Assembly (NCBI GenBank): GCA_017991475.1
Contig: JAGOQK010000004.1
Location: forward strand, 7,227 to 70,549
Source: Minisyncoccota bacterium
Lineage (GTDB): Bacteria; Patescibacteriota; Minisyncoccia; Phycocordibacterales; PALSA-1337
DNA length: 63,323 bases
Reading direction: 5' to 3'
Shown here: positions 4,098 through 63,323 of the stretch, in pieces
Layout of the letters: the number at the start of each line of letters is the position of its first letter
Position numbering within the stretch: position 1 is the stretch's first letter
The notes under the pieces: model-generated
Databases searched by the model: none
Told to the model about the DNA's origin: nothing
What the model saw: only the letters and a program-made list of their open reading frames with translations
Program-made: the position numbers and the translations under genes

Positions 4098-4145
4098 ATA
4101 TTTCGCATCTATATTATTACACTATACTACGATAACGATATGTCT

Positions 4146-37405: not shown

Positions 37406-37417
37406 GAATGATATAAA

Positions 37418-40806: not shown

Positions 40807-42285
40807 TTATGGCGGCGTCAAACGGAGCCTGAAGAATCTGCTTGGCTCGCCAGAGTTTATGGACGTTGTGTTGGTACGCCAACCTGAACCGACCAGTGTC
40901 GTACCTGGGACATCGTACCATTCTCTCGAAGAGAGATTCGTCGAATACTGAATCGTGTACGTCGCGTTGGTCGAGGTGTAGTATCCGAATTGAACCTCGT
41001 TTCCTTCTTGCTGTGCAAAGGAGGCAACTGAATTCGAAACGCCTGTGAAAAAGCCGTAGCTATCCCACACGATTGGAAACAGTTGTCGACTTCCCTCGAT
41101 AGGCAAATGAACCCCGTCTGCAGCTAGGTAACCCATCGACGAGAACCATAGGTATGACACACACTCATTCAAGCAATCAATAAAATCCTTCTTCGCTTGA
41201 ATGGCGAACTCGCGGATGATTTCGTTATGCACAACTGTGATTGTATCAGTAGTCAAATAGTCCACATCAGATGATGTCAGTGGCGTACCGATATACTTGA
41301 ACAAGGCATTCGGCAAGGAATTTGACCAAGCCAGATCACACTCGATAAGACCATCGAGAGTTGACTGGTCAGCAAACTCCTTCATGTGCCATAGAAGCGT
41401 GACATTTGTCCTATTGCCCGCATCCGACAATACCTTGAAGATCGGGTTGCGGATGTTGACGGACACATTTGTCACTGATCTGAGCGCAATACCACCCTTG
41501 TCGATAAATGTCGCGACGATCCCTGGCGCAGTCGTATCCTCGATGTAGGGACCAACCACTATGTTGTTTCCCGTGATTCCATCGATCTTCATCCGATAAT
41601 AGTTCGGGGGTAGATCAATGAGCACAGGAAATCCTTCACCTTCAGCATTCGCCGTGTATGTGTTCGTGACGAGCACTACTCCGAACGGTCCACCGTTGGT
41701 CGAAATGGAGATAGCGATATCGCCGCCCGCAATGTTCTTTGCCATCAATGGACCAAGTCGAGTGCATCGTAATCCCCACGGATTATGCTGATTGTTCCAG
41801 GTCATGCTCCCGCCAGGAGTGACCAGACCGAAGTCTGTAAACCAGTACTTGCTCCAAGCAAGTATGTTGGAAGAATATGACATGTTGATCCACTGCGCTC
41901 CGCCAGACATGACGGACATGGTGTGGTTACGATAATTATTCATCGCGTACCCAGCGACCCCATATTTCTTAATGAGCGCATCCACCAGACAAGCTCCAAA
42001 GGACCGATATGAGTCAGCCATGCTATCACCGAAAACGATTACGATGACACGATCTATCGGCGACCCTTCTCGGAAAGCCGTAGAAAGCGGATGCTCGTAG
42101 CTCACCGTGGTCAATAGATGATGAGTCGGCGGACCACCGATCGAGGCCGTCGAGAGTCCAGGTTCGAGAACATGGAAGTCCTGAATCTGAGCCGATTGTT
42201 TGGGGGGCAAAGGCCCACCATCTGCACTGCCGCAAAAAAGGAGCGCTGCCGCTCCAAGAGACATTAGGGACATCGTGGTATTCAT
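40807..42285 (-). CDS. Secreted SGNH-hydrolase-like protein with a C-terminal QYSTNL..W..RFFRL module
   Basis: Signal peptide; FGDS, KGGI, ADGVHL; C-terminal YTIQYSTNLSSREW...RFFRL. Confidence 0.78.
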   Translation of the reverse strand: MNTTMSLMSLGAAALLFCGSADGGPLPPKQSAQIQDFHVLEPGLSTASIGGPPTHHLLTTVSYEHPLSTAFREGSPIDRVIVIVFGDSMADSYRSFGACLVDALIKKYGVAGYAMNNYRNHTMSVMSGGAQWINMSYSSNILAWSKYWFTDFGLVTPGGSMTWNNQHNPWGLRCTRLGPLMAKNIAGGDIAISISTNGGPFGVVLVTNTYTANAEGEGFPVLIDLPPNYYRMKIDGITGNNIVVGPYIEDTTAPGIVATFIDKGGIALRSVTNVSVNIRNPIFKVLSDAGNRTNVTLLWHMKEFADQSTLDGLIECDLAWSNSLPNALFKYIGTPLTSSDVDYLTTDTITVVHNEIIREFAIQAKKDFIDCLNECVSYLWFSSMGYLAADGVHLPIEGSRQLFPIVWDSYGFFTGVSNSVASFAQQEGNEVQFGYYTSTNATYTIQYSTNLSSREWYDVPGTTLVGSGWRTNTTSINSGEPSRFFRLRLTPP

Positions 42286-42502
42286 TCGTTATTCCTTCAT
42301 TTTGTTGTTTTATTGTCAAAGAATCCACTTATATCTATAACAAATATAATTGGACTTGTCAATATTAGGTGTTGACATGCTGTGAAAATAGGTTAATATC
42401 GAGAAGAACGCTCTTTGTTATATCTGAAGAAAACGGGGTTAGATAAGCCTCATCCAGATGTTTCTGGATACCTCAGACCATACGAGAAAGCGAGTACTGA
42501 AC

Positions 42503-43939
42503 ATGAAAACGATCGATAGTCCCTTGAAACGAATGTACACCGCAGCTTGCATCTGCCTTCTGATTGCATTCATCATGACAACGCCGGCATCACGGGCTGA
42601 AACATTCTATCTTGCCTCGAAGTGCAAGGAGAAAGTCCAGCTCAGCCCCCCGCTCCCCGGTAATCAATACCCAGGAGCATCTCTTCACCGGGTCATTCCC
42701 GACGAAAGCATCTGGGTCATCAACGACTGCGGCATGACCGAAAAAGAAATTGGCGACATCGTTGACAGGGTCGCAACCCACATCACCGAAGTCAGGATCC
42801 TGAATGCGCTCGAAGAGCTCAACAAACCGGTCAAGCAGCCCGTCGTGATTCCTACGCCGCGTCCCGCATTCACGAACTTCTACAACCGCACCAATATGAA
42901 TATCGGCGCGGGAATCGCTCTCATGGAAACCATGAGGCCCGGCATCAGCACAAACTTCACAAAGGAGCAGCGCGCTGTCAGAACCAACGAAACGCTCAAG
43001 ACAAAGAAGATGCAGATGCTTCCGCCGCACATCCGTAAGAGCAATCCGGAATACAAGAAGCTCCTCCATGAGTTCATGCAGGAGCGCAAGCAGCAACAAC
43101 CCAAAGAAGAGAAACAGCGGGGCCAAGGTGACGGCGCAGGCGAAATATTTGAGGATACCTCATTCTTCGCAATCCACCTCAAAACACTCGCCGCACCTAC
43201 TCCGCAGAAGTATCCCCTATGGGACGGAACGAACCTGACTATCTGGCAACAATTCAAGCCAGGCGTGTCGAGGTACAGCCAATTCGTGGGAGGAACAAAC
43301 GTCTACACGGACTTCAAGGATAGCACCGATGTTGAGCTCATCGAATCACCGTTCTTCAATCTCGCGCTCCGATATCCAGACACTGTCGCGCGTGAGGTCA
43401 ACCACTGGCCTTGTGCCGAAGTCAACTTCTATGGATTCTGCGACTATGGAACGGAATTTGACGTAACGAATCGAATGCACATGCTTCCTTATGGAGTATC
43501 CTGTGGATGGGATGTTGCTCCAGATCCGTTCTGCAGCATGGCGCTTCCTCACATCGTGCTGGTTCCGATATCAATGAATGGACCGGATGATCCGCCATTC
43601 TTCTTTCCGACTCCGCAGGGCGATCCTCATATCCAAAAACCATTTGGTCAACCCCCAAGGCTACAAATACAGTCGGGCGGACCAAGCTTCAGCACAATCG
43701 AAGTCCAAGAAACCGGCGATCTCGCATCCACCGCATCATCGAGCAGCTCAATGATGCGTGCGGGACAGATGGAGGGATTATCATCGATGAGTCTTACCGG
43801 CTTCGACTACGGAGTAACATGGACCCATGTCACAAATGCGACAACTGACGCAACAGGAATGATGCGTGTTGAGTTGCCCATGACGAGCGATTCTCGTTTC
43901 TACCGAGTTATTGGGACCAAGACCAATGTAGTTGACTAA
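42503..43939 (+). CDS. Secreted hypothetical protein with a related C-terminal W..RFYRV module
   Basis: Signal ending in SRA; C-terminal TWTHVTN...SRFYRV; start set to ATG 42503. Confidence 0.78.
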   Translation: MKTIDSPLKRMYTAACICLLIAFIMTTPASRAETFYLASKCKEKVQLSPPLPGNQYPGASLHRVIPDESIWVINDCGMTEKEIGDIVDRVATHITEVRILNALEELNKPVKQPVVIPTPRPAFTNFYNRTNMNIGAGIALMETMRPGISTNFTKEQRAVRTNETLKTKKMQMLPPHIRKSNPEYKKLLHEFMQERKQQQPKEEKQRGQGDGAGEIFEDTSFFAIHLKTLAAPTPQKYPLWDGTNLTIWQQFKPGVSRYSQFVGGTNVYTDFKDSTDVELIESPFFNLALRYPDTVAREVNHWPCAEVNFYGFCDYGTEFDVTNRMHMLPYGVSCGWDVAPDPFCSMALPHIVLVPISMNGPDDPPFFFPTPQGDPHIQKPFGQPPRLQIQSGGPSFSTIEVQETGDLASTASSSSSMMRAGQMEGLSSMSLTGFDYGVTWTHVTNATTDATGMMRVELPMTSDSRFYRVIGTKTNVVD

Positions 43940-43948
43940 CCTCTATTC

Positions 43949-43985
43949 AAGCGCGTGACGCCCTGTGCATCACGCGCTTTTTTTA
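43949..43985 (+). terminator. Intrinsic terminator between convergent genes
   Basis: aagcgcgtga/tcacgcgctt stem plus a T-run. Confidence 0.82.
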
Positions 43986-44006
43986 TACAAATTTTTATAT
44001 AGTGAT

Positions 44007-47000
44007 TTATTGAGATGCCTCTTGTTCGTCGTCCGCAACCGCAGCATTTTCAACTGGCACTGACTCCTCTTCGAGGTTATCTTGCTCGCTTTGTTCATCT
44101 GTCTGATCAGCACCTGAATCAGATGAATCAACCACATCAGTTGCTCCTATGTCGTCCTCGTCGGCTACTGCAGAATCAGCCTGATCCGATTCATTCCCCT
44201 CTTCAGTATCATCGACTGATTCAGTGTCACCCTGGGTAGCCTCTTCATCATCTCCCGAAGTCTCAGGGGTTGTCGTAGAGACATCCTCATTATCATCGAC
44301 AAGAACGGGGGTGGTTGTTGCTTGTTCATCATCCAACTCAGATGATGCATCATCGTTCGCAACTTCATTATTATTCTCGTCGTTATTAGGCACGACCTCT
44401 CTCGTCCGACCGCCCGCGTCAATAAGAAGAGCTTTGAATTGGTCTTTGGTTACACAGACATCGTCGACACACACATCATTCTGCACCGTAAGCGTATTCC
44501 CGACAAACCATGCGAGAATCGAATTGACCTTACTGATCAATTCTTTGAGCGCCTTCACGAGGACAGAGAGCACCGCACGATCATCGATACCACTCAACTT
44601 ACCATCTGCAGCATAGGTGACGAGATGCTCATCGACATTCTCTGTGTCTTCTGCGATAAATCCATAGCGAGTGCGCTGATCGCCGTCATTATAAACAAAT
44701 GAGGTCGGCTCGAGATCCGCTACAATACCCAGAGCATCGAGATCCAGGGCTTCGATATCATGCTTCGTGTCACGGAGCGAAGGGAGACATGCGTCAGTTC
44801 CCGCGTTGTAGACGAGCTCACCAGCCGTAGTAAGACATACTGAGCCGGCACCGGTCGATGCGGTAAGACCGCTGAATGCCGCCGTACCCGCGACTGAGAG
44901 CGAGCGCCACGGCGAGGTCGTAGCGACGCCCACATTTCCTCCTCCGTTGAACACTGCGTCATAATTGTTAGTTCCCCCTGTCACCGCAGAAACATATAGA
45001 CCTATATTGCTTGCCGTCGCCCCGGACCATGTACCCGTGGATGATATGTTGATACCTGATTTTATAATATTTGACGTAGACGTCGCGGTATTGTTGACAG
45101 AGATACCACTGAATGCAGAAGTCTTGGCTGTAGCGCTCGATGAAAGCGCAATATCAAGAATGTGAGATGGCGATGTGTCATTGATGCCAATATTACCGAC
45201 ACTATCGATAGTCATTCGTGATGTTCCTGTGGGCGTATTTGTTGCTGTGGCAGTATAGAAATCATGTTGCGTTGCTGACTGCAAAGTTCCCGTGCCACCT
45301 CCCCAGGTAATGACATTCGACGTACTCAAAGATGATGCCGAGAAAAATGCTACCGGACTTGCTGAGGTCAGATACGGTGCAAATGATACCTTTGCAATCT
45401 TGGTGGTGTAGTTCGTCCTTGTGGTAAGGTTACTTTCCGCACCGAGAATAAGAGTTGCTGGCGCTCCTCCATATGCGACATCGAGTCCTCCGTAGTGTTC
45501 TCCTGAAAATCCGAACCCTGCGGATGAACCTCCGATTTGTACTGCGCCAAACTTACCAATACTCAACCGAGTTGCGAGAGTTCCATCAGCAACTCCAGAG
45601 CTTCCAGGTGACATCGTCTTGAAATCGATCATCGAATATCCGCTTCCAGTTGATGTTCCAGATTGTAGGACAAGAGTTCCTCCGTTGCTATTTGTCAGGC
45701 CAGCCTTGGCTCCACCAGCTTGAATAGTCAGATTTCTTCCGCTTGTTGTCGTATTCCTCTCCACTGTTATGCTCCGCGCAGCATTGCCGCCAAACGAAAT
45801 GTCGGAAAGGGCACTCGTCGTCCCGATACCAAGACGAGTGTTCGTATTGTCCCAGAACAGACCAACTGCCTCAGAAAGTGTAGTGCCAGATGAGCCATAG
45901 TATGGTATGTATCCCGCCGTTCCACTCGTGACTGTGCCTGATCCTCCTCCTGCCGATATACAGGTACCGTTCACCGCAAAACAACCCGTTCGAATATTTA
46001 TACCGCTACCAAACGTTGATGTGGCTGTAGGCGAAAGATTGATAGTATCATTACCCGTAGCCCCAAGCGAGAGATGGGTACCCGGAGTAGTCGAACCTAT
46101 ACCTATATACCCTGCGGCAGTAACCACCGAGAGAGCTGTCCCGTTCACGCCCCATCGTTGCAAATTACCCGTCTTTCCTGAGACACCATTAACATAGAGG
46201 TCGATAAGCGTACTGTTTGCCTCTTGCACTTCGAGACGAGCGAGCGGAGCGACGCTCGTCGGAGAATCAGCGATCTTCATGCGACCTCCTGAAGTCATCG
46301 CTAAGCGTGCGTTGCTGCCAATACCCCAATACATACCATACGGATACACGGCATCATTACCCGGCATTGAAACAACACTCAGTCTCTGCGTCTGACCAAC
46401 ATCGCCGAGAACAAGCTCCTTATAAGAATTCTTGTGTCCATATATAAACCAACCCGCTCTTCCAAGTGTGGAGTCTGTACTTGGATTCATGACACCTTTC
46501 TGATTGTAAGTCTGAGTCGTTTGACCCGAAAGTATAAACTGGGGAAACATTGCACCACCAGAATTGTTCCAAATCTTGGACTGGAACTGACCGATCGATT
46601 GTTCAAATAGTATATTCGAAGCATAATCATATCCCTTGGCAGTAAGGTGCACACCAGGTGCATCAAGATATGCGTTCGCGTCCATCATCGTTGCATCTGG
46701 AAACAAATCGAAAAGATCGAAATACGCATGATCGTTATCGTTTGCGTACTTCTTCATATTGGCATTAGAAGCGATCTGTATTGTCGTATAGAAATCGCTA
46801 CGGTATGGTGATGACCCAATGAAGAACCAATCCGTCTCAGTGGTTCCTGCATCGAATTTCGCCTTGAGGCTTGGAAAATATGTGTTAAATATAGCTGAAT
46901 CATCCTTGGTTTCTACGAAAAGCAGATGCGGAGCAACATCAGCTATGAATGGTTCCACGATAGCTTGCGGCGTTTGATCATTCTCATCAAAATCTATTCC

Positions 47001-48581
47001 TCCTTTTGAAAAATCGATAAGAATGAATCCTCTCTCATTATTAGTATAGGCTGCACCGCTCACGATCTTCGAGGTACCAGAGAGTCCAACAACTCTAAAA
47101 CGATAATTCTGAGTCGTCGTCGATATCGTCAATATGCTTCCAACAGCCGTACCTCCATTGTCAGTGTCCGTAGTCGATCCTGACACATCAAAGAAATCAC
47201 CAGACTCCTCTATGTCTGCCTGAACCTTGAACGTTCCTCCTCCATTCTGACTAATGTAGTAGACCTTGAATGTGTTAGATCTGATAGTATCGGTGCTGTT
47301 GTTGCTGAACGTCACAGTTCCAGAAGTCGGCACACTGTATGTGGCACCAGTAATCCAATGGGTATAGTCTGTAGTATTGAAAGTTGTCCCATTACCAGCG
47401 AGAGCATTTATTCCCCCAAAACCAAGTCCAGCCAATCCGTAATACTGCTGAAACAAGGCGAGTAAATATGTCCTCTTTCCCTCTATAACTGAATCTCCGA
47501 AAATACCCACCTTAAGATTCAGACCATTCAACGAGTCGTAGATTGCGCCAGCTGTATTATAGAGCCCGTATATTCTGTTTTTAATACAATTAGTCCCATC
47601 AGTCGAGAAACATGGTGCTGTCGTGGTCGCGGTAAAATATCCCCCTCCAGAAACTGAAAGTTTCGCGGAAGGCGATGTAGTACCGATGCCGACATTTCCG
47701 CTCGCATTCCAGACTCCTCCTGGGAAATACGCAGCTTCGGATACCGACACCTGGGTCGTCGACGCATTCGCCAAGGTCTGTAGTGCGGTGAATGTGTTGG
47801 CGACATACAGCTTCGGAATAGTTGTTGACGCTGCGACATACGCATCTACGTCAGAGTTACCATATGTACCGCTGCCCCCGACGATACCGAGCGACGATGT
47901 TGAGACCAATTCATAAGCACCTGAAGCCGTGCCGAGCAAAAGCTGACCGTATGACGGAGCGCTGGACAAACCCGTTCCACCGTTCGAGGGTTGGAGAGCT
48001 GTACCAGACCAATCCTCATCGTTCACCGATGATTGACTAGCCAGTGTACCGAGATCTGATATATCATCTGCCTCCAAATTGGTGACGGAATTGCCGATAC
48101 TATTGAAAACTCTATCAGTCTGAATATCTGCCTTCGCCTTGTATTGATAAAATTCTGCACGGAGCGCATCGATAGCATTCGCCATATAGTCTGGCGTGAT
48201 TCCCGCATCGGCAGCAACAGTCATGACGGATACTGTGCGATCGAGAAACGTATCGTTTGATACCGGCGGCCTTGAAAAATCGAGATTACTGGTAGAAACG
48301 CGCTCAAGTTCAACACCATCTTCAACCACCTCCTTCAAAATGGGTTCTTGAGAAATATCCACATCGGCTGGACGCGCGCAATAAGAAGGACCTTCAAACG
48401 GTGAAACTGCAGGAATAATCGTACACACAAACATGCGCCATCCCGTCTGCGCAGCAGCTATGTTCAGTCCGAAGGAGAATGCCTGCACTGATTTCGGATA
48501 CGGAGCCACCAATAGTGCACCCAAATAAGCCACTATGCCCATGCATAGCAAAGCTATTTTCCGGTTCCCCGAAGTATTCAT
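44007..48581 (-). CDS. Giant secreted tail-fibre-like protein (SGNH module, GNVGIGT repeats, S74 chaperone domain, acidic tail)
   Basis: N-terminal TM/signal; FGDS...GVHL module; PSLRDTKHDI, RYGFIAEDTE; D/E/T-rich C-terminus; start set to ATG 48581. Confidence 0.88.
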   Translation of the reverse strand: MNTSGNRKIALLCMGIVAYLGALLVAPYPKSVQAFSFGLNIAAAQTGWRMFVCTIIPAVSPFEGPSYCARPADVDISQEPILKEVVEDGVELERVSTSNLDFSRPPVSNDTFLDRTVSVMTVAADAGITPDYMANAIDALRAEFYQYKAKADIQTDRVFNSIGNSVTNLEADDISDLGTLASQSSVNDEDWSGTALQPSNGGTGLSSAPSYGQLLLGTASGAYELVSTSSLGIVGGSGTYGNSDVDAYVAASTTIPKLYVANTFTALQTLANASTTQVSVSEAAYFPGGVWNASGNVGIGTTSPSAKLSVSGGGYFTATTTAPCFSTDGTNCIKNRIYGLYNTAGAIYDSLNGLNLKVGIFGDSVIEGKRTYLLALFQQYYGLAGLGFGGINALAGNGTTFNTTDYTHWITGATYSVPTSGTVTFSNNSTDTIRSNTFKVYYISQNGGGTFKVQADIEESGDFFDVSGSTTDTDNGGTAVGSILTISTTTQNYRFRVVGLSGTSKIVSGAAYTNNERGFILIDFSKGGIDFDENDQTPQAIVEPFIADVAPHLLFVETKDDSAIFNTYFPSLKAKFDAGTTETDWFFIGSSPYRSDFYTTIQIASNANMKKYANDNDHAYFDLFDLFPDATMMDANAYLDAPGVHLTAKGYDYASNILFEQSIGQFQSKIWNNSGGAMFPQFILSGQTTQTYNQKGVMNPSTDSTLGRAGWFIYGHKNSYKELVLGDVGQTQRLSVVSMPGNDAVYPYGMYWGIGSNARLAMTSGGRMKIADSPTSVAPLARLEVQEANSTLIDLYVNGVSGKTGNLQRWGVNGTALSVVTAAGYIGIGSTTPGTHLSLGATGNDTINLSPTATSTFGSGINIRTGCFAVNGTCISAGGGSGTVTSGTAGYIPYYGSSGTTLSEAVGLFWDNTNTRLGIGTTSALSDISFGGNAARSITVERNTTTSGRNLTIQAGGAKAGLTNSNGGTLVLQSGTSTGSGYSMIDFKTMSPGSSGVADGTLATRLSIGKFGAVQIGGSSAGFGFSGEHYGGLDVAYGGAPATLILGAESNLTTRTNYTTKIAKVSFAPYLTSASPVAFFSASSLSTSNVITWGGGTGTLQSATQHDFYTATATNTPTGTSRMTIDSVGNIGINDTSPSHILDIALSSSATAKTSAFSGISVNNTATSTSNIIKSGINISSTGTWSGATASNIGLYVSAVTGGTNNYDAVFNGGGNVGVATTSPWRSLSVAGTAAFSGLTASTGAGSVCLTTAGELVYNAGTDACLPSLRDTKHDIEALDLDALGIVADLEPTSFVYNDGDQRTRYGFIAEDTENVDEHLVTYAADGKLSGIDDRAVLSVLVKALKELISKVNSILAWFVGNTLTVQNDVCVDDVCVTKDQFKALLIDAGGRTREVVPNNDENNNEVANDDASSELDDEQATTTPVLVDDNEDVSTTTPETSGDDEEATQGDTESVDDTEEGNESDQADSAVADEDDIGATDVVDSSDSGADQTDEQSEQDNLEEESVPVENAAVADDEQEASQ

Positions 48582-48652
48582 GCAGCAATTATAGCACCCC
48601 ACTGAGGCAATCGAGATTGCTTCAGTGGGGATAAAACGCTCAAGAATCGACC

Positions 48653-56517: not shown

Positions 56518-59500
56518 TTAAGGTTGTACATCTGTAGTAGAAGTATCCGCCTCAGGGCTATCCGTGGTTGCAGGCTCTACTGCTTCGACAGTTTCTTCTG
56601 TCGTACTATCTTCGGCCTCTGAAGGAGTAGTCGTGTCACCTGACTGAGTATCTGTACCCTCGGAGACTTGAATTTCATCTCCCTCGTCGACTACAGGAGT
56701 AGTGGTGGAATCATCAGCCGGAGCACTCTCCTCTGTTGTTGCCGTAGTATCCTCTGTTGATGCAGTATCCTCAACTATTTCCTGCTGTGGAGTCGACGTA
56801 GCCGTACTATCGGTTGTGGTTGGCGATTCTTCTGGTACTACCTCAGGATCTGACTCCGGTGTCACAGGTGCTGCTGGAGACGCAGGCACTGGTGATTGTA
56901 CCTCTCCGCATGCACCTAGATCCTTGAGCCAATCTCCTCCACTGATTCTGACGCAGTAGACCTGTCCGGTAGCCGCATCTGTCATCTCGAGACCATTCGA
57001 AATTGCCGCAACCTGCGTCTCGACGCGATCAGCATAGACGATACGTGCAGTGAGCTTATCCATTGTCCATTCGCCAATAGACCTGATCATGTCAGTCACT
57101 GCGCTCGCGATAGTGGTAATGAACGGTGTCGAGGTTGCGAGACGCTCCTCTGTAGTTGAAGCGATGATATCTATTGTCGTACTTGCGATGCGTGCGGAAG
57201 TAGATGAGACTATAGCATCGATGAAGGATTCGTCCGACGAAATGGTCATGCTGACTTCCGATATGTCTATCTCGACATCCCTGAGCGCGAGCTCCTCTGT
57301 CGTGCTTGCGAGAGCAGATACCTTCTGATCAATAGTGGCGATAGCGAGGTTCGAGGCGTCGATAGCAGATGCGAGAGATTGAAGTGTCTGCTTCGATGAT
57401 GCGAGGTTGGTGACCGCATCAACCTTCCAGTTCTCGAGACCTATAGTGCTCGAGGCGATATCCCCTATCTGTACCTGCTGCTCCTTGACCGCGTTGACCA
57501 CGACCGCGACCATATCCTCATAGCGCACGCCGCGCGGTGTCGTACCATCTGCTTCGGTGAAGATGAGACGATCGTCTACCTGACCAACCTCCTCAGCGAT
57601 GAAGCCGATACGCTGATCGTCGCTGCCGTTGTACTTGAATGATACAGGATTGAGTGTCTTGAGTGCCTCGAGGCCGATGGAGAGCGGTCCGATAGAGTTC
57701 TTGAAGCGAGCTGAGGAGACTGTACAAGTTTGCGCACCCGTATTGACGACCATCTCATTATTAGCTGAGAGACAGAGCGCATCACCAGAAACTGAAGCTG
57801 CCGTAAGACCATTGAAGGCGGCAGTACCAACAACTGAGAAGGTTTTCCATGGTGATGTGGTACCGATACCGACATTTCCTTGTATTATCGCTCCGTTCGA
57901 TGGACCAGCAGTCGTATAATATGATGCTCCGAGTGAGAAGCTTCCATTATCATGAAACTTTGCCATGGCCGCCGCATCACCTGTTCTAAACAAAATATCA
58001 TCATTTGCATTCTGTGTGCTGATATAGAGATTCTGATCATTATGAGACCATGAGAGCTGTGCGCCGAGATTGTCAGACGGAGAACCGAAATAGATTGTCC
58101 CGAAATTGGCATCAGGCGTAAGGAGAGAGAAGCCGCTGTTGCCGCTCGCCTCCATCACGATGGTATTGGAGTTTGTATTTGCAGTAACGGATCCGGCAGA
58201 ACCATTTTTTACGTGAAGTGTTCCCTCTGGGCTGGTTTCGCCGATACCGAGCTGCGGCGTGCCACCAGAAGTCCCCTGTCGAAGACGCATAAGTTCATTT
58301 GAGCCAGTTGATTGCAAATCACCACCCGCATTCCACGTAAAGCGATTGGCAACCCCATTGGTCGAGAAGAACTGCATCTCCCCCGCATTAAGTCCCCAAC
58401 CCCAACGATTTGTTGCTGAACCTGGATTGTAGAGAAGTAATGCTGGTAAGCCATAATTTCCCCCAAAATCAATCGTTGAGTTCCCTCCCGGCGACGAACC
58501 TTTTGAAAGCATATTAATATTATTGAATGTTGAGGTTGCCGATGATGTTGTTGCGGTGAATGTTCCCGCGAGAGCGTTGGTACCCAAATCGGATGAACCA
58601 TTGACCGACAACATACGCCACGGTGATGTGGTACCGATGCCCACATTACCTGTGTATGGGATTGTGAGTACGGGCACTGCGGTCGGAGCAGCTCCAGAAC
58701 CTGTACTTGATGAAACCTGGAATATATTCTTGACTGAGCCAGGGAAATCAAGGACTGACAGCGCTGCAGAAGGATTGACTGCTGCGCCGCTAAATGAAGC
58801 CACGTACCCGTTACCAATACCTACGCCAACGTTATGCACTATAGCAATGCTTGTTGATGCAGCAGCACCAGTCAAGCTGTCGGATGGAGTCGTCGAGAAG
58901 AACATGTTCTGCGCTCCATATGCAGATCCGCCTGGGATATTACCGAAGAAAATATTGTTTTGTGTGGCCGAGGTGAAATCGGCTGAGAATATCGCAATGT
59001 TGTTATTTGGGTTCGAATACGAAGGAACAACGATGCGTCCAACCTTTCTTGTCGAATTACTCAAGGTTCCCGCAGCATTCACATTGGCGCCAAAACGAAT
59101 TGCACCAGTTCCAGCTCCCGACAGGAATGAACCAACTCCCGCATTTGAAACAGATGCAGCCAGCGTCGAACCGGTAGAATCATAGACTGATATTGTTCCT
59201 GTAGCTGTGACTACACCACCAAGATACGTGCTGCCTGCGACGCTTAGCTTAGATACTGGAGATGTGGTACCGATACCTATGTTCCCATCAACAATTAATG
59301 AATCTGCCGTTCTTATCTGATCAGCTGCCCCGCGATACAATTCCGTATCAATAGTTGTGCCAATTGCACCACTTGCCCACGACAAGCGACCCGTTGATGA
59401 GAGTGCGAACTGTGTTCCTCCCCAAGATGCAAAGTCAGTTCCATTGGAACTAAATCTCCAGAAACCATCCGCCACATTCCTAAATCCAGTATTTGTGTCA

Positions 59501-62500
59501 TTTGAAGTCGTTATTACTGGAGTAGATGCAGTACCAGAAGAAGTGGCCATAAAGATATCCGCAACAACATTTCCAGCGACTGACAGATTGGCATATGGAG
59601 ATGTGGTACCGATACCTATGTTTCCTGTATTCGCCATGAATAGGCTCGAGGTTGCAGTAAGAGTTGTACCGTTTGCCGCATAGTACGGAATCTGACCAGT
59701 GGTACCCGAACCGACTGTGCCCGAACCTGAACCACCGACACAGACACCGTTGATGGCATAACAACCGCTCGAAATATCAAATCCTGTTGTAGAAGTCGTC
59801 GTTCCTGCGGCATTGATCTCAAGTATGTTTGCGGGTGTAATTGTAACGTCGTTTCCCGCATTCAAAAGGACATTTCCTGTACCACTTGTCACATTCACAT
59901 TTACCACATCAGTACTTAGGCCGTTACCATCCGCATCAAGCAGGCTCACGCTATCAGTCAAGGTGAGTTGCGCTGCATCCTGAGTCAACCATGAGAAATA
60001 CGCACTGTTTCCGGAGAAGATTGAATCCGGTTGATCTCCAGTGATATTGAAATTCTTGACGGTTGCTGCAAATCTTCCAACTGCGGGTTCGAAGAAGAAT
60101 GGGGCTGTCGATGTAGCTGTCGACCCGATCGAAACCGCCCCTTGGTTGAAATATATGCCGTCCAACGAGTTATCGATCCATTGCGTATTGACCTGCGGAA
60201 GATCTGACACCATCGTCACGCCATCTCCGACTTTGGTATCATTCGTATCCGTCACATAAATCCTTTGACCCGAAAGCGGCACCACTGCGGCCAAATTCGA
60301 CGATGTATCCTGCAAAGGCAACACTATACCATAGGCATTATTGAAAGAAATATCACCAGCGAACGTACTGGTAGCGGTCGTGGATGTGGCCGTAAAGTAT
60401 TCCGCAACTGTTTCTCCAACGACAGACAGCTTCGCATATGGAGAGGTCGTTCCGATACCAATATTTCCATTTGCAGCGATGAAGAGGCTTGAGGTTGCAG
60501 TGAGGGTTGTGCCATTTGCTGCATAGTATGGAATCTGACCGGTGGTGCCTGCCCCGATAGCAGAAGAGCTCATGAGGCCAAGTGATGATGTTGCAGTGAG
60601 CGTATACCCCGTACCATTCCCCACAAGGAGCTGACCATATGATGGTGCGGCGGTGAGTCCAGTACCTCCATACAAGACGCCGATTGAACTGGTTGCTGAT
60701 ATCACTCCATTATTTGCCTGAAGTGGTCCGTTCAGCGATCCAAGGGTGAGTGCGTTAGTAGTAAGACCTCCAGTGAATGTCTGAAGTGCTGAGAACGTGT
60801 TGGCGGTGTATACCTTCGGGATGGTGGTGGATGCGTGGATGAAGGCGCTGACGCTCGTATCGTCATAGACGCTATTGGTGATGCATGTTCCATTTACTGC
60901 GAAGCAGCCATCGAGAAGATTTATTCCTTTTGAAAAAGTTGAGGTAGCGTAAGGTGATATGTTTACATAGTCAGTACTTGATCCGATAGCGAGCATCGTG
61001 CCTGGAGTTGTTGTTCCAATACCTAGACTTGATGAATTTACCGTTAATGTAGGCAAAGAAGAATACCCGACCATGAAACTATTTGCGATATCATTCTCGA
61101 ACCCTTTACCAAAGCCAGTAGCAAGATTTGCTGATGATGTACCTGCAGAACCGAAGAAGAATGAACCTTGCCCAGAAGACGTAATACCACCAGTACCTGC
61201 TCTACCTCCGGCAAATGCGCCTTGGCCGGAAGCGGTAATTTTTCCTGACACAGCATAACCGAGCGCAATAGATCCTGAACCGCTTGATAAAAGTGTGTGC
61301 GTTTCTGCAGCAGAACCAAGAGCAATAGAACCAACTCCTGACGCAGTCATAAATCCTCCAGGAGATGATGCAACACTTCCAGCCACAAATGAACCAAAAC
61401 CAGACGATGTAATAGCTGAACTATTGAATATCGAACTAACATATCCAAAAGCACTTGAACCCTGACCCGATGCTGTTATTGTATCGACGTTTGTACTTTT
61501 ACCTACCGCAATAGAATTGTTAGACGCGTAAGTTCGAGGACCTCCAATAGAAACATTTCCCCTTAATGTAGTGGTTGCTGTCGATGATGCGGCCGTAAAA
61601 TAATCAGAAAGAACTCGACCACCGACAGCGAATTCAGCGGCTGGAGATGTTGTTCCAACCCCAACATTACCGGCCAAAGTATAGTAGATATTTGCAATTG
61701 GCTTCAAACTCCCTACAGAGGTAACCCCATCTCCAATCTTCGTATAGGTTGTATCTGTTTCGTATATCAGCTCACCTGACAACGGAACTACACTCGCAAG
61801 GTTTGCAGCTGTATCCTGGAGTGGCAAAACTACTGCATTGAGGTTACCATCGGAATCAATAAGCACATCGTTTCCGACATAGAAAGTCTTACCCTCTGCA
61901 AGGGCAAAGCCACTTGATGTCGTTGTAGCAGTTACTAGAAGGTTTCCATTGAAAATGGTATCACCAGCAACTGACAGCTTGGCATATGGTGAAGTGGTAC
62001 CGATGCCGACATTACCCGTAGTGTAGTAAATATCTGAGGCATTAGTCGTCCACTGTGACGATGTGATGCCCAATGAACTCGTAGCTGTCAACGTATATCC
62101 TCCTGAAGAGTTGCCAAGAAGGAGCTGACCATATGACGGCGCAGCAGTGAGTCCGGTACCTCCATACAGTACTCCGATTGAGGTCGTAGCTGAGACAACG
62201 CCATTGTTAGACTGGAGCGGGCCGTTGAGAGATCCGAGAGTGAGAGCGTTCGTGGTAAGACCGCCAGTGAGAGTCTGAAGTGCAGAGAAGGTGTTTGCAG
62301 TATATGTCTTCGGGATAGTTGTAGATGCGTGGATGAAGGCGCTGACACTCGTATCGTCATAGACGCTATTGGTGATGCATGTTCCATTTACTGCGAAGCA
62401 GCCTGCTGAAATATCGATGCCGTTCGTGAATGTGGAAGATGCGCTAGCCGTGCTAACGATCGGAGTTCGTACACGAACATCAGTAGTAGTAATGGTGACC

Positions 62501-63323
62501 TTGCTAGAATTACCAACTCCGAGATCCAGAGATTCTGCAAGAGAATTTGTCATAAGTTGTCCGATCGCGAACGTCTGGTTCTCTGTAAGTGAAAGACCTT
62601 TACCGAATGCGAACTGGATCCCGTCGCCATCGATAGTGTTTTCTGCTCCATAGATACCTGCGGAATCACCAGATCCTGTTACCGTGTTGTTTGTACCGAC
62701 GATCGTATGCTTCGATCCCCTGCCAATATTATTGTGACCGAAGATATATGAATCCTCTGCCTCAAGGAGCTGGTTTCCGAAGCCGAACACGCCGCCAACG
62801 AGAGTATCCACGGTATTATCATTTCCAACGACAGCTGCTTCAAAAGTGTTTGAATGAAGGTTGTTCTTGAATCCAACAGAGAATGCTCCATAATTTGTAT
62901 CCCCCGCTACACCCGTCCAGTTTCTGATAGCCAAATTCTGATTATCCGTATTTCGCGGAGTCCCGATCATTAGCGGAGCGGCGATCGTACTTGATGCCGT
63001 CGTCGATGTTGCTGTGAAATAGCTCGCCACAACTTGCCCAGCCACTGCGAGTCGAGCATACGGCGATGTCGTACCTATGCCTACATTACCTGTAGTGTAG
63101 TAAATATCTGAGGCATTAGTCGTCCACTGTGACGATGTGATGCCCAATGAACTCGTTGCAGTAAGTGCATATCCTGATCCAGTACCAAGAAGAAGCTGAC
63201 CATATGATGGAGTCGTTGTGATACCTGTACCACCACGAGATACCGCGAGTGTACCTGTGGTATCTCCGAGTGCGATGTTGAGTGTTGAGGTCGCAATGGT
63301 GCCAACTGCCCCGTTGGTGCCAT
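56518..63323 (-). CDS. Giant tail-fibre-like surface protein, 5'-truncated by the window (over 2260 aa)
   Basis: Frame is open to the window edge; many GNVGIGTTSP repeats; two Mtd-N-like modules; VSSARFKNSI and RIGFIAEEV (S74); coiled coil; acidic Thr/Glu/Pro tail. Confidence 0.9.
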   Translation of the reverse strand, partial: GTNGAVGTIATSTLNIALGDTTGTLAVSRGGTGITTTPSYGQLLLGTGSGYALTATSSLGITSSQWTTNASDIYYTTGNVGIGTTSPYARLAVAGQVVASYFTATSTTASSTIAAPLMIGTPRNTDNQNLAIRNWTGVAGDTNYGAFSVGFKNNLHSNTFEAAVVGNDNTVDTLVGGVFGFGNQLLEAEDSYIFGHNNIGRGSKHTIVGTNNTVTGSGDSAGIYGAENTIDGDGIQFAFGKGLSLTENQTFAIGQLMTNSLAESLDLGVGNSSKVTITTTDVRVRTPIVSTASASSTFTNGIDISAGCFAVNGTCITNSVYDDTSVSAFIHASTTIPKTYTANTFSALQTLTGGLTTNALTLGSLNGPLQSNNGVVSATTSIGVLYGGTGLTAAPSYGQLLLGNSSGGYTLTATSSLGITSSQWTTNASDIYYTTGNVGIGTTSPYAKLSVAGDTIFNGNLLVTATTTSSGFALAEGKTFYVGNDVLIDSDGNLNAVVLPLQDTAANLASVVPLSGELIYETDTTYTKIGDGVTSVGSLKPIANIYYTLAGNVGVGTTSPAAEFAVGGRVLSDYFTAASSTATTTLRGNVSIGGPRTYASNNSIAVGKSTNVDTITASGQGSSAFGYVSSIFNSSAITSSGFGSFVAGSVASSPGGFMTASGVGSIALGSAAETHTLLSSGSGSIALGYAVSGKITASGQGAFAGGRAGTGGITSSGQGSFFFGSAGTSSANLATGFGKGFENDIANSFMVGYSSLPTLTVNSSSLGIGTTTPGTMLAIGSSTDYVNISPYATSTFSKGINLLDGCFAVNGTCITNSVYDDTSVSAFIHASTTIPKVYTANTFSALQTFTGGLTTNALTLGSLNGPLQANNGVISATSSIGVLYGGTGLTAAPSYGQLLVGNGTGYTLTATSSLGLMSSSAIGAGTTGQIPYYAANGTTLTATSSLFIAANGNIGIGTTSPYAKLSVVGETVAEYFTATSTTATSTFAGDISFNNAYGIVLPLQDTSSNLAAVVPLSGQRIYVTDTNDTKVGDGVTMVSDLPQVNTQWIDNSLDGIYFNQGAVSIGSTATSTAPFFFEPAVGRFAATVKNFNITGDQPDSIFSGNSAYFSWLTQDAAQLTLTDSVSLLDADGNGLSTDVVNVNVTSGTGNVLLNAGNDVTITPANILEINAAGTTTSTTGFDISSGCYAINGVCVGGSGSGTVGSGTTGQIPYYAANGTTLTATSSLFMANTGNIGIGTTSPYANLSVAGNVVADIFMATSSGTASTPVITTSNDTNTGFRNVADGFWRFSSNGTDFASWGGTQFALSSTGRLSWASGAIGTTIDTELYRGAADQIRTADSLIVDGNIGIGTTSPVSKLSVAGSTYLGGVVTATGTISVYDSTGSTLAASVSNAGVGSFLSGAGTGAIRFGANVNAAGTLSNSTRKVGRIVVPSYSNPNNNIAIFSADFTSATQNNIFFGNIPGGSAYGAQNMFFSTTPSDSLTGAAASTSIAIVHNVGVGIGNGYVASFSGAAVNPSAALSVLDFPGSVKNIFQVSSSTGSGAAPTAVPVLTIPYTGNVGIGTTSPWRMLSVNGSSDLGTNALAGTFTATTSSATSTFNNINMLSKGSSPGGNSTIDFGGNYGLPALLLYNPGSATNRWGWGLNAGEMQFFSTNGVANRFTWNAGGDLQSTGSNELMRLRQGTSGGTPQLGIGETSPEGTLHVKNGSAGSVTANTNSNTIVMEASGNSGFSLLTPDANFGTIYFGSPSDNLGAQLSWSHNDQNLYISTQNANDDILFRTGDAAAMAKFHDNGSFSLGASYYTTAGPSNGAIIQGNVGIGTTSPWKTFSVVGTAAFNGLTAASVSGDALCLSANNEMVVNTGAQTCTVSSARFKNSIGPLSIGLEALKTLNPVSFKYNGSDDQRIGFIAEEVGQVDDRLIFTEADGTTPRGVRYEDMVAVVVNAVKEQQVQIGDIASSTIGLENWKVDAVTNLASSKQTLQSLASAIDASNLAIATIDQKVSALASTTEELALRDVEIDISEVSMTISSDESFIDAIVSSTSARIASTTIDIIASTTEERLATSTPFITTIASAVTDMIRSIGEWTMDKLTARIVYADRVETQVAAISNGLEMTDAATGQVYCVRISGGDWLKDLGACGEVQSPVPASPAAPVTPESDPEVVPEESPTTTDSTATSTPQQEIVEDTASTEDTTATTEESAPADDSTTTPVVDEGDEIQVSEGTDTQSGDTTTPSEAEDSTTEETVEAVEPATTDSPEADTSTTDVQP

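What the first reader, a model, noticed from the sequence alone, without database searches (positions are those of the whole stretch)
41055..47515. One SGNH esterase-like module occurs both standalone and inside a tail-fibre-like giant protein
41055..42050 and 46590..47515 align by eye over about 300 aa: FGDS / YGxAG / WxT / NYxxxxxGxxG / KGGI / IGxP / NxxxxxxA / GVHL. The layout is an SGNH domain with an inserted beta-sandwich. Established: this resembles Ape1-type peptidoglycan O-acetylesterases and SGNH deacetylase tailspikes of phages. The embedded copy has PGVH instead of DGVH. Inference: the epibiont displays a glycan de-O-acetylase, or an inactive binder, on a trimeric fibre to engage the host envelope, and the module is shuffled between scaffolds.
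Basis: partly seen in the sequence, partly recalled or inferred. Interest (0 to 1): 0.65.

Follow-up and report, generated by a model that had tools for sequence, protein, structure and literature searches.

The report
Ape1-like esterase: free and fibre-borne
A tiny candidate-phyla-radiation (CPR) bacterium carries two distantly related copies of a sugar de-acetylating enzyme module, one in a secreted protein and one built into a phage-like surface fibre. The two genes stay neighbours in related genomes, so they are probably tools for working on another cell's envelope.

Summary
Residues 79-411 of the 492-aa protein (40807-42285, minus strand) and 363-671 of the 1531-aa protein (44007-48602, minus strand) align colinearly at 22% identity. 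The Smith-Waterman z-score is 8.4, profile-profile E is 2.6e-47, and an HMM of the embedded type hits the standalone ORF at E 1.1e-30.

Both AlphaFold2 models (pLDDT 84.5 and 88.6) match the peptidoglycan O-acetylesterase Ape1 best (4K3U, 8GKD; E about 1e-15, TM about 0.7). Both have the same beta-sandwich inserted between Block I and Block II.

The copies are not a recent shuffle. The embedded one belongs to a family found in phage tail-fibre proteins. The standalone one belongs to an unannotated, mainly Verrucomicrobiota family.

The host protein is a fibre with a Peptidase_S74 domain, like phage fibres and Bdellovibrio MAT (mosaic adhesive trimer) proteins.

New points:
- Fibre and esterase genes are also linked on two related contigs.
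- Both families carry Lys where SGNH enzymes carry the oxyanion Asn.
- The fibre copy's Block V Asp is lost in all four orthologs, while Ser and His are kept.
- The genome lacks the AT3 and MBOAT acetyltransferase families, which points to a foreign substrate.

Enzyme activity, substrate and host are inferred, not shown. I class this as a new variant of a known kind, of moderate interest.

The parts
40807..42285 (-). Standalone protein P0001, 492 aa. It has an N-terminal signal-like peptide, the Ape1-like esterase module, and a C-terminal beta-sandwich ending in FFRLRL.
   Evidence: ORF and translation. 92 homologs with no Pfam domain. No Pfam, NCBIfam or PHROG hit. AF2 model pLDDT 84.5.
41055..42050 (-). 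Esterase module of P0001 (aa 79-411). It is an SGNH core interrupted by a beta-sandwich at about aa 110-250 (41536-41958).
   Evidence: DSSP of the model. Foldseek top hits are Ape1 4K3U and 8GKD, E 1e-15, TMt 0.66-0.71. hhalign to the embedded copy.
42022..42033 (-). Block I FGDS of P0001, with the putative nucleophile Ser88.
   Evidence: G86, D87 and S88 are nearly invariant in 37 family members. Coordinates.
41377..41391 (-). Block III loop WHMKE of P0001 (aa 299-303). Lys302 sits where SGNH enzymes have the oxyanion Asn.
   Evidence: W299, H300, K302 and E303 are at least 90% conserved. The loop follows strand 295-300 in the model.
41107..41121 (-). Block V ADGVH of P0001, a canonical DxxH with Asp390 and His393.
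   Evidence: D390 is nearly invariant and H393 invariant.
40810..41028 (-). C-terminal beta-sandwich of P0001 (aa about 420-492), shared with the Verrucomicrobiota homologs.
   Evidence: Model strands 422-490. tblastn of this piece hits the Verrucomicrobiota loci at 30-38% identity.
42458..43939 (+). Intervening hypothetical gene P0255 (493 aa) on the opposite strand, between the fibre and esterase genes. It is not part of the module.
   Evidence: No family hit. Absent from the equivalent slot on L039 and L040.
44007..48602 (-). Fibre protein P0002, 1531 aa from the GTG start. The collection records a 1511-aa form starting 20 codons downstream. Order of parts: N-terminal hydrophobic segment, shaft repeats, esterase module, conserved 661-1200 region, S74 domain, acidic tail.
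46590..47515 (-). Embedded Ape1-like esterase module (aa 363-671). Its beta-sandwich insert spans about aa 390-520.
   Evidence: AF2 model of aa 340-680 has pLDDT 88.6 and pTM 0.88. Foldseek top hits are Ape1 4K3U and 8GKD, E 8e-16, TM 0.69-0.73. Top BFVD hits are phage tail-fibre proteins, TMq 0.67-0.76.
47490..47501 (-). Block I FGDS of the embedded module, with Ser371.
   Evidence: GDS is kept in 98 of 99 family members and in all four fibre orthologs.
46899..46913 (-). Block III loop ETKDD (aa 564-568), with Lys566 at the expected Asn position.
   Evidence: In the family this position is K in 50 of 99 and R in 9 of 99, followed by D or E in 87 of 99. It aligns with K302 of P0001.
46647..46661 (-). 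Block V APGVH (aa 648-652). His652 is kept and the canonical Asp is replaced by Pro649. Asp647 lies five residues before the His.
   Evidence: In the family His is kept in 99 of 99 and Asp in 75 of 99, with Gly in 7 and Pro in 6. The four orthologs have P, P, V and A at this site, and all keep YLD.
44619..44771 (-). Peptidase_S74 intramolecular chaperone / autoprotease domain (aa 1278-1328). The candidate Ser1275...Lys1280 pair (SLRDTK) lies at 44763-44780.
   Evidence: Pfam E 3.4e-8. 40% identity to the S74 region of the 2209-aa neighbour. Motif position. The S..K spacing follows PMC10769870.
44010..44432 (-). Acidic C-terminal tail (aa 1391-1531, 35% Asp+Glu). It would be released if S74 self-cleavage occurs.
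   Evidence: Composition. Cleavage is inferred.
56518..63147 (-). Second S74 fibre paralog (2209 aa, Mtd_N + Peptidase_S74). It shares shaft repeats and the S74 domain with P0002 but has no esterase module.

Best explanation
The two segments are homologous copies of one two-domain module: an SGNH-type serine esterase core with a CBM35-like beta-sandwich inserted after the first helix. This is the architecture of the peptidoglycan O-acetylesterase Ape1.

Shown:
- The copies come from two old sister families. The embedded copy is of a type found in proteins that otherwise carry phage tail-fibre domains.
- In this genome the embedded copy sits inside a chromosomal fibre protein that ends in a Peptidase_S74 domain.
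- The standalone copy belongs to an unannotated family found mainly in Verrucomicrobiota, with one Patescibacteria sub-clade.
- The fibre gene and the esterase gene are linked in the window and on two related contigs.

Inferred:
- The fibre is exported and trimerises with help of its S74 domain, which then cuts itself and the acidic tail off. It carries three laterally placed esterase modules, as in the phage epsilon15 tailspike.
- Both enzymes remove O-acetyl groups from a glycan of another cell's envelope (capsule, O-antigen-like polymer or peptidoglycan). This would expose a receptor or make the polymer open to attack. The free enzyme would either complement the fibre-borne one in specificity or act at a distance.
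- The fibre copy probably works as a Ser-His dyad, or with Asp647 as a displaced acid.
- In both families a conserved Lys probably replaces the usual Asn of the oxyanion hole.
For: Homology.

Fold and insertion point. For comparison, CjApe1 has CBM35 inserted between helix alpha2 and strand beta14, with residues S73, G237, N270, D367 and H369 (bioRxiv 10.1101/2021.09.23.461501). There is also a direct sequence link: the embedded-type HMM hits Ape1 4K3U at E 1.9e-6 and 8GKD at E 0.0018.

Phage-type ancestry of the embedded copy:
- 421 cluster representatives match at E <= 1e-3, in proteins of about 180-1400 aa, with the module at varied positions.
- Partner domains in relatives are K1-lyase_C, Mtd_N, Peptidase_S74, BppL_N and many tail-fibre PHROGs.
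- Five IMG/VR contigs carry it. In one, the gene lies just upstream of an endolysin, after other PHROG-family genes.
- Top BFVD matches are tail-fibre or minor-tail proteins of Klebsiella, Arthrobacter, Rhodococcus and Proteus phages.
- SGNH receptor-binding proteins are proven esterases in Klebsiella prophages, phage G7C and phage epsilon15 (PMC13123978; bioRxiv 10.64898/2026.07.31.742079).

Fibre scaffold: S74 domain, repeats shared with the second S74 fibre, similarity to the Bd3182 MAT fibre tip 8OJN at E 0.0036 (PMC10769870).

Linkage:
- On L039 the fibre P0096 is followed after 115 bp by the standalone-type P0009.
- On L040 the fibre P0097 is followed after 76 bp by an esterase 81% identical to P0001.
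- In the window one gene lies between them.
- Genome G340 holds both genes on separate contigs.

Selection: the module is 82-97% identical among fibre orthologs whose N-terminal 180 residues and most C-terminal S74/tail regions are only 20-38% identical. Ser and His are kept in all four orthologs.

Foreign substrate: the 94.8%-complete genome has no Acyl_transf_3 and no MBOAT gene, while the control genomes do. The module is absent from 24 same-genus and about 300 same-class genomes, so it is not core wall metabolism.

Precedent for variant active sites: Ser-His dyads in CE2 enzymes, SASA enzymes that lack the Block III Asn, and an Arg-based oxyanion hole in BcPatB1 (PMC9487903).
Against: - No activity, substrate, localisation or host is shown.
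- The canonical Block III Asn is absent in both copies. The Block V Asp is absent in the fibre copy and unconstrained among its orthologs (P, P, V, A). A paralogous fibre, P0134, has even lost the Ser (GDG). A purely binding role for the fibre copy therefore remains open.
- I could not superpose the models on Ape1, because no coordinates or residue-level alignments were available. The Lys-for-Asn equivalence rests on sequence position and predicted secondary structure only.
- Linkage is not universal. In G339 (L001), L041, L043 and on contig G340:C4 the two genes are not adjacent.
- Cytoplasmic acetyltransferases of other families were not excluded, so a self-made acetylated glycan is still possible.
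- The signal peptide and trimer state were judged by eye and from domain content, not predicted with a dedicated tool.
Confidence: 0.6

Rival explanations
1. The fibre-borne copy is a catalytically dead lectin. The esterase fold would be kept only as a glycan-binding head on the fibre, and only the standalone enzyme would be active.
For: The Block V Asp is replaced by Pro, Pro, Val and Ala in the four orthologs, so it is not under constraint. The paralogous fibre P0134 has GDG in place of GDS and also lacks the Asp. Neither copy has a canonical Block III Asn.
Against: Ser371, His652 and the Block II Gly are kept in all four orthologs. The module is among the most conserved parts of the protein (82-97% against 20-38% in the N-terminal 180 residues). 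In the wider family 24 of 99 members lack the Asp, yet 98 of 99 keep Ser and 99 of 99 keep His. That pattern is expected if a Ser-His dyad is enough, as in many CE2 esterases (PMC9487903).
Confidence: 0.22
2. One or both copies do the classical Ape1 job. They would de-O-acetylate the bacterium's own peptidoglycan so that its lytic transglycosylases can act during growth.
For: Ape1 is the best structural match for both copies. The homolog on L002 lies next to a Mur ligase gene. In Verrucomicrobiota the standalone family sits in a conserved housekeeping context, between a POT transporter gene and a purF-like gene (GATase + Pribosyltran domains). That fits a self-directed role there.
Against: The own genome has no MBOAT (PatA-type) and no Acyl_transf_3 (OatA-type) gene. 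The module is missing from 24 same-genus and about 300 same-class genomes, which does not fit a core wall function. One copy is built into an extracellular phage-like fibre.
Confidence: 0.08
3. The modules are lipases, phospholipases or acyltransferases rather than glycan esterases. They would attack host membrane lipids or transfer acyl groups, as some GDSL and PatB-type enzymes do.
For: SGNH/GDSL enzymes include lipases and O-acetyltransferases. PatB structures appear among the weaker fold matches (TM 0.34-0.50 on the core only). Some phage relatives are annotated as 'lipase'.
Against: Ape1 is the only whole-module match in the solved-structure library. Many weaker matches to the inserted domain alone are carbohydrate-binding modules (CBM6, CBM29, CBM61, CBM86). 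The characterised SGNH receptor-binding proteins of phages are polysaccharide de-acetylases (PMC13123978).
Confidence: 0.08

Closest known systems
Ape1, peptidoglycan O-acetylesterase of Neisseria meningitidis (4K3U) and Campylobacter jejuni (8GKD, 8GLD)
   Same: It has the same two-domain build: an SGNH core with a CBM35-like beta-sandwich inserted between the helix after Block I and the Block II strand. It is the best solved structural match for both copies (E about 1e-15, TM 0.66-0.73). A weak direct HMM match also exists (E 1.9e-6). The Ser, Gly and His positions are present.
   Different: Sequence identity is only 11-19%. Lys stands where Ape1 has the essential Asn (N270 in CjApe1). The fibre copy lacks the Asp. 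There is no patA/patB partner in the genome. One copy is embedded in a 1531-aa fibre, and the other carries an extra C-terminal beta-sandwich. The substrate is unknown.
SGNH esterase receptor-binding proteins of phages (G7C gp63.1, epsilon15 gp20 'petal' domain, Klebsiella prophage SGNH tail fibres)
   Same: An esterase module is carried on a trimeric fibre or spike, sometimes with an S74-type chaperone. The embedded copy's sequence family occurs with tail-fibre domains and on viral contigs. Its best viral fold matches are tail-fibre proteins.
   Different: Here the gene is chromosomal in a 771-kb CPR genome, among housekeeping genes, with no other phage genes nearby. tblastn finds no match in 50,697 deposited phage genomes and no PHROG covers the module. 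A second, free esterase gene is linked to it.
Mosaic adhesive trimer (MAT) fibres of Bdellovibrio bacteriovorus, S74 subgroup (Bd3182; PMC10769870)
   Same: Both are cell-encoded, phage-like surface fibres of a bacterium that lives on other bacteria. Both have an N-terminal export signal, a long repetitive shaft and a C-terminal self-cleaving S74 chaperone with a Ser...Lys pair. The region before the S74 domain resembles the Bd3182 tip (E 0.0036).
   Different: The MAT paper describes binding tips (beta-helix cleft, TNF-like, C-type lectin) and does not mention any esterase (0 occurrences of the word). This fibre carries an enzyme module mid-shaft and an acidic tail. The MAT N-terminal domain was not tested here.
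CE2 carbohydrate esterases (CtCE2, CjCE2A/B)
   Same: They combine an SGNH esterase with a beta-sandwich carbohydrate-binding domain. Many work with a Ser-His dyad and no Block V Asp (PMC9487903). They rank next after Ape1 in the fold search of the embedded copy.
   Different: The beta-sandwich is N-terminal, not inserted. The whole-module TM-score is only about 0.3. CE2 enzymes keep the Block III Asn.

Membership tests
SGNH hydrolase superfamily | alpha/beta/alpha fold with a central parallel sheet | tested here: met
   AF2 models have pLDDT 84.5 and 88.6. Foldseek matches many SGNH/GDSL structures on the core.
SGNH hydrolase superfamily | Block I GDS(x) with the nucleophile Ser at the end of strand 1 | tested here: met
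   FGDS at aa 85-88 (P0001) and 368-371 (P0002). Nearly invariant in both families.
SGNH hydrolase superfamily | Block II Gly (oxyanion hole backbone) | tested here: met
   KGG at aa 263-265 and 533-535, after the second core strand. G is invariant in the standalone family and present in 89 of 99 of the other.
SGNH hydrolase superfamily | Block III Asn (oxyanion hole side chain, GxND) | tested here: not met
   The loops read WHMKE and ETKDD. Lys (at least 90% in one family; K or R in 59 of 99 in the other) occupies the expected place. A 3D superposition could not be done.
SGNH hydrolase superfamily | Block V DxxH | tested here: inconclusive
   Met in the standalone copy (D390-G-V-H393). In the embedded copy His652 is kept but Asp is replaced by Pro649. 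Asp647, five residues before the His, is conserved in the four orthologs.
Ape1-type peptidoglycan O-acetylesterase | CBM35-like domain inserted into the SGNH core between the helix after Block I and the Block II strand | tested here: met
   All-beta segments at aa 110-250 (P0001) and at model residues 51-180 (P0002 aa 390-519) lie between the first helix and the Block II strand. Whole-module TM to 4K3U and 8GKD is 0.66-0.73. Insertion point as in bioRxiv 10.1101/2021.09.23.461501.
Ape1-type peptidoglycan O-acetylesterase | Full set of catalytic residues Ser, Gly, Asn, Asp and His, each required for activity | tested here: not met
   Asn is missing in both copies and Asp is missing in the fibre copy.
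Ape1-type peptidoglycan O-acetylesterase | Partnership with a peptidoglycan O-acetylation system (PatA/PatB or OatA) in the same organism | tested here: not met
   No MBOAT and no Acyl_transf_3 match in the own genome, which is 94.8% complete. The controls were positive.
Ape1-type peptidoglycan O-acetylesterase | Hydrolysis of the 6-O-acetyl group of MurNAc | not testable with these tools
   Needs an enzyme assay.
Phage SGNH receptor-binding proteins | Esterase module carried in a fibre or spike protein with phage-type shaft or chaperone domains | tested here: met
   Peptidase_S74 at E 3.4e-8. Relatives carry K1-lyase_C, Mtd_N, BppL_N and tail-fibre PHROGs. BFVD matches.
Phage SGNH receptor-binding proteins | Encoded in a phage or prophage and part of a virion | tested here: not met
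   Neighbouring genes encode TGT, LOG-like, FBP aldolase and PfkB proteins, plus tRNAs. No phage structural genes were found. No hit in deposited phage genomes.
MAT fibre superfamily (S74 subgroup) | C-terminal S74 chaperone/protease with a Ser...Lys catalytic pair | tested here: met
   Pfam hit at aa 1278-1328. SLRDTK at aa 1275-1280 has the S-x4-K spacing, though Leu replaces the usual Asp (PMC10769870). Cleavage itself was not tested.
MAT fibre superfamily (S74 subgroup) | Signal peptide followed by a conserved beta-rich N-terminal domain of about 130 aa | tested here: inconclusive
   A hydrophobic N-terminal segment with a VQA|F site is visible. The region aa 1-180 is poorly conserved even among orthologs and was not compared with MAT proteins.
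MAT fibre superfamily (S74 subgroup) | Trimeric beta-helical tip before the S74 domain | tested here: inconclusive
   aa 1125-1249 align with the Bd3182 tip (8OJN) at E 0.0036.

The most novel reading that the evidence does not exclude
A lineage of Patescibacteria has domesticated a phage receptor-binding cassette as a two-part host-engagement tool. One part is a self-processing surface fibre carrying an Ape1-like de-O-acetylase. The other is a linked, secreted second esterase captured from Verrucomicrobiota, which may even be the host lineage. The two would strip acetyl groups at different positions or on different polymers of the host envelope. Both would belong to an undescribed 'S-G-K-H' branch of the SGNH superfamily, in which a conserved Lys replaces the oxyanion-hole Asn.
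Probability: 0.25. Interest if true: 0.72.

Novelty: new variant of a known kind. Interest (0 to 1): 0.5.

Why it matters
How CPR/Patescibacteria epibionts recognise and open up their host cells is largely unknown, and almost none are cultured. This locus offers a concrete, testable pair of candidates: a phage-like fibre with a built-in glycan esterase, and a linked free esterase. It extends the 'phage fibre reused by a bacterium that lives on bacteria' theme from Bdellovibrio MAT adhesins to CPR bacteria, and adds an enzyme to what has so far been described as binding tips.

It also defines two sizeable protein families that current domain libraries miss (92 homologs of the standalone type and 421 clusters of the embedded type; no Pfam or NCBIfam match above threshold). 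Both have the Ape1 architecture and an unusual Lys in the oxyanion-hole position, which is of interest for SGNH enzymology and for annotating phage receptor-binding proteins. The Verrucomicrobiota affinity of the free enzyme is a lead, no more, towards the host.

Tried and rejected
- Plain BLASTP between the two proteins is only marginal. Profiles and a shuffle test were needed.
- Pfam, NCBIfam and PHROGs give nothing for P0001. For P0002 they give only a sub-threshold Lipase_GDSL_2 hit besides the S74 domain.
- phmmer of P0001 against PDB sequences finds nothing useful.
- tblastn of the embedded module against 50,697 phage genomes gives no match.
- The region-restricted homolog search found only the three fibre orthologs, because of the length filter. 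The profile search with A3 returned only 2 proteins.
- The search for related loci with A3 failed for lack of a conserved stretch. A 4-sequence alignment worked but gave only 5 viral and 5 metagenome loci.
- I tried to obtain a residue-level alignment of Block III with Ape1 from the combined alignment A5. Ape1 did not appear among the reported matches.
- Recent duplication or a shuffle between the two window genes is rejected: about 20% identity, and separate families and histories.
- A prophage origin of the locus is rejected: the neighbours are housekeeping genes.
No BLAST similarity was found, and P0255 has no counterpart on related loci.
- Conserved synteny of the standalone gene across Patescibacteria is rejected: contexts differ on L001, L002, L041 and L043.
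- Expression evidence: only wastewater, aquaculture and freshwater DNA metagenomes hold the sequence well, and one RNA run holds 4% of the words. I did not pursue this.

Full report
**What is there.** The finding spans three genes. On the minus strand, ORF 40807-42285 encodes a 492-aa protein (P0001) and ORF 44007-48602 a 1531-aa protein (P0002). Between them, on the plus strand, lies a 493-aa hypothetical gene (42458-43939, P0255). All the listed motifs are present in both, in the same order, including ADGVH against APGVH.

The surroundings are cellular. They encode TGT, a LOG-like protein, class II FBP aldolase, a PfkB kinase, five tRNAs, pilin-like proteins, and two more giant surface proteins. 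The window lies on a 70.5-kb contig of a 771-kb, 17-contig genome estimated 94.8% complete. Earlier notes of this scan call it a Paceibacteria (CPR) genome. I did not test that label.

**Is the similarity real?** BLASTP alone is marginal but colinear (E 0.018 and 0.061). A single local alignment covers 287 positions at 22% identity, with score 83 against 37 +/- 5.5 in 1000 shuffles (maximum 66; z 8.4). P0001 has 92 homologs, all without Pfam domains. A profile of 37 of them (A1) matches the embedded segment at 98.9% probability, E 3.6e-17. The embedded segment has 421 cluster representatives at E <= 1e-3. A 16-sequence profile of them (A3) matches A1 at 100% probability, E 2.6e-47, over 314 columns. 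A3 also finds the standalone ORF in the genome at E 1.1e-30. The genome has exactly these two copies, plus one ordinary 225-aa GDSL_2 gene elsewhere.

**Fold.**
- AlphaFold2 gave confident models: P0001 has pLDDT 84.5, and P0002 aa 340-680 has pLDDT 88.6 with pTM 0.88.
- In both, a first strand and helix (Block I) are followed by an all-beta insert of about 130-140 residues, then by the remaining alpha/beta core.
- The five best Foldseek matches in the PDB are, for both models, chains of Ape1 from N. meningitidis (4K3U) and C. jejuni (8GKD, 8GLD). E-values are 8e-16 to 1e-14, TM 0.66-0.73, over 370-393 columns, so both domains are covered.
- The next matches cover only one domain or have TM about 0.3. 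They include CE2 esterases, small GDSL enzymes and CBM6/29/61/86 modules.
[quoted passage not shown] The insertion point is the same here.
- The A3 profile also reaches Ape1 by sequence: 4K3U at E 1.9e-6 and 8GKD at E 0.0018.

**Active-site residues.**
- Block I GDS and the Block II Gly are conserved in both families.
- Block V is a canonical DxxH in P0001.
- In the embedded family His is kept in 99 of 99 members and Ser in 98 of 99. The Asp is kept in only 75 of 99, with Gly in 7 and Pro in 6.
- The four fibre orthologs have Pro, Pro, Val and Ala at the Asp position. All keep GDS, His, and an Asp five residues before the His.
- Neither family has the Block III GxND. The loop after the third core strand reads H-M-K-E in the standalone family (W299, H300, K302 and E303 at least 90% conserved). 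In the other family it reads E-x-K-[DE], with K or R in 59 of 99 and D or E next in 87 of 99. The two Lys residues align with each other.
- The SGNH review records Ser-His dyads in many CE2 enzymes, loss of the Block III Asn in SASA enzymes, and an Arg-based oxyanion hole in BcPatB1 (PMC9487903). Such variants can therefore be active. Whether these ones are is not shown.
- One paralogous fibre (P0134) has GDG in place of GDS. At least some fibres may therefore use the module only to bind.

**Two families, two histories.**
- Relatives of the embedded copy are about 180-1400 aa long and carry the module at varied positions. They also carry K1-lyase_C, Mtd_N, Peptidase_S74, BppL_N, C1q or CBM_5_12 domains, and hit 91 different PHROGs, many of them tail-fibre families.
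- Five IMG/VR contigs encode the embedded type. In L020 the gene follows a protein of over 1000 aa and other PHROG-family genes, and lies just upstream of an endolysin.
- In the BFVD library the best fold matches are tail-fibre or minor-tail proteins of Klebsiella phage Sin4, Arthrobacter phage Thunderclap, Rhodococcus phage ReqiPoco6 and Proteus phage Mydo (TMq 0.68-0.76).
- SGNH receptor-binding proteins are experimentally confirmed esterases in Klebsiella prophages and phage G7C (PMC13123978). In the epsilon15 tailspike the SGNH domain is a monomeric 'petal' protruding from the trimer (bioRxiv 10.64898/2026.07.31.742079).
- The standalone family is different. Its members are about 430 aa and are labelled hypothetical.
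- Of 19 genome loci, 12 are titled Verrucomicrobiota and 2 Patescibacteria. The other 5 are titled 'uncultured Bifidobacterium' but are nested among Verrucomicrobiota sequences in the tree.
- In Verrucomicrobiota the gene often sits between a POT transporter gene and a purF-like gene (GATase + Pribosyltran domains).
- The window protein groups with L001, L002, P0005, P0008 and P0009 in one clade (SH-aLRT 99) beside Verrucomicrobiota branches. The contexts of P0005 and P0006 look like small CPR genomes.
- This fits one old transfer between Verrucomicrobiota and a Patescibacteria lineage. The direction is likely but not proven.

**The scaffold.** P0002 has a Peptidase_S74 domain (aa 1278-1328, E 3.4e-8). 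It has a Ser1275...Lys1280 pair at the spacing given for S74 proteases (PMC10769870), followed by a 141-aa tail that is 35% Asp+Glu. It shares GNVGIGTTSP-type shaft repeats and the S74 region (40% identity) with the 2209-aa protein at 56518-63147, which has no esterase. These are the only two S74 genes in the genome. Residues 1125-1249 resemble the tip of Bd3182, an S74-type 'mosaic adhesive trimer' fibre of Bdellovibrio (8OJN, E 0.0036). Among fibre orthologs the esterase module and the following 540 residues are 75-97% identical. The N-terminal 180 residues are 20-37% identical. The S74 region and tail are exchanged between variants: 97% identity to P0097 but 32-38% to the others.

**A linked pair.**
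- On contig L039 the fibre P0096 is followed after 115 bp, on the same strand, by P0009, a standalone-type esterase that is 38% identical to P0001.
- On contig L040 the fibre P0097 is followed after 76 bp by an esterase 81% identical to P0001, then by a 414-aa gene and a second, 771-aa S74 fibre.
- In the window the same two genes are separated only by P0255, which has no counterpart on those contigs.
- A further Patescibacteria genome (G340) has both genes on different contigs. G339 has only the esterase.
- The flanks differ: rplT-infC-PLD on the relatives' contigs, and TGT and PfkB genes in the window. The pairing therefore survives rearrangement.
- The pairing is not universal.

**Self or foreign substrate?** The genome has no Acyl_transf_3 gene (the family of OatA and many surface-glycan acetyltransferases) and no MBOAT gene (the PatA family), although the control genomes score. 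Neither module type occurs in 24 species of the same genus. In about 300 genomes sampled across the class, the only other hit is a partial, weak one (E 2.5e-7, 65 residues of the SGNH C-terminal part) in one genome. A housekeeping role in the cell's own wall is therefore unlikely. A role on another cell's envelope is the better reading, but it is an inference.

**Verdict.** The similarity and the Ape1-like fold are established. The fibre nature of the large protein is well supported by sequence. With respect to known systems this is a new variant. SGNH esterases on phage fibres and phage-like fibres on predatory bacteria are both known. The combination in a CPR chromosome, the linked free esterase of Verrucomicrobiota type, and the Lys-type Block III were not found in the papers searched. 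Interest is moderate (0.5). The locus gives testable candidates for CPR-host contact, but every functional step still needs experiments.

Noticed in passing
window 42458-43939 (+): P0255 is a 493-aa hypothetical protein with an N-terminal hydrophobic segment and a C-terminus ending in ...SRFYRVIG. It sits between the fibre and esterase genes. It has no Pfam, NCBIfam or PHROG hit and no counterpart on L039, L040 or the other loci. BLAST finds no similarity between its C-terminus and that of P0001.
   Followed up: partly
P0002 aa 1261-1531 (window 44010-44822) versus P0096, P0097 and F340 (L037:5703-10451): The S74 chaperone region and acidic tail are mosaic among otherwise 75-97% identical fibre orthologs. 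P0097 is 97% identical over aa 1261-1320, while P0096 and F340 are 32-38% identical. This suggests recombination that swaps the C-terminal cassette.
   Followed up: partly
protein P0134 (1411 aa, from the representative library): This paralogous fibre has the same N-terminal 50 residues as P0096. Its esterase module is only about 30% identical and reads GDG in place of GDS, with PPVH in Block V, so it is probably non-catalytic.
   Followed up: partly
L006, L007, L008, L019 (Verrucomicrobiota-type loci), about 4000-8800: In these genomes the standalone-type esterase gene lies between a divergently transcribed upstream gene (a POT-family peptide transporter in L007 and L008, where Pfam was run) and a 486-aa gene downstream. 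In L007 and L008 the 486-aa gene carries glutamine amidotransferase and phosphoribosyltransferase domains (purF-like). This looks like a conserved housekeeping context that hints at vertical inheritance there.
   Followed up: partly
L003, L006, L015, L017, L019: Five MAG contigs titled 'uncultured Bifidobacterium sp.' carry proteins that nest among Verrucomicrobiota sequences in the tree. The organism labels are probably placeholders or errors.
   Followed up: no
L040:8412-10727 (+): Two genes downstream of the fibre-esterase pair lies a second, shorter fibre gene (771 aa, Mtd_N + Peptidase_S74). The slot 3' of the fibre gene varies between relatives: esterase only (L039), esterase plus two further genes including this fibre (L040), or nothing (G340:C4).
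   Followed up: partly
window 36524-38272 (-): Two adjacent genes encode proteins with prepilin-type N-terminal methylation motifs. One also has a Laminin_G_3 (concanavalin-like lectin) domain. They lie a few kb from the fibre-esterase locus.
   Followed up: no
window 51351-56153 (-): A 1600-aa protein with Laminin_G_3, Big_7, PKD and fn3 domains and repeats matching an exoglucanase CbhB model far below its cut-off. It is another large surface protein between the two S74 fibres.
   Followed up: no
G000:C14:90719-91168 (+): This is the only canonical small SGNH gene in the genome (225-aa ORF, Lipase_GDSL_2, E 9e-25).
   Followed up: no
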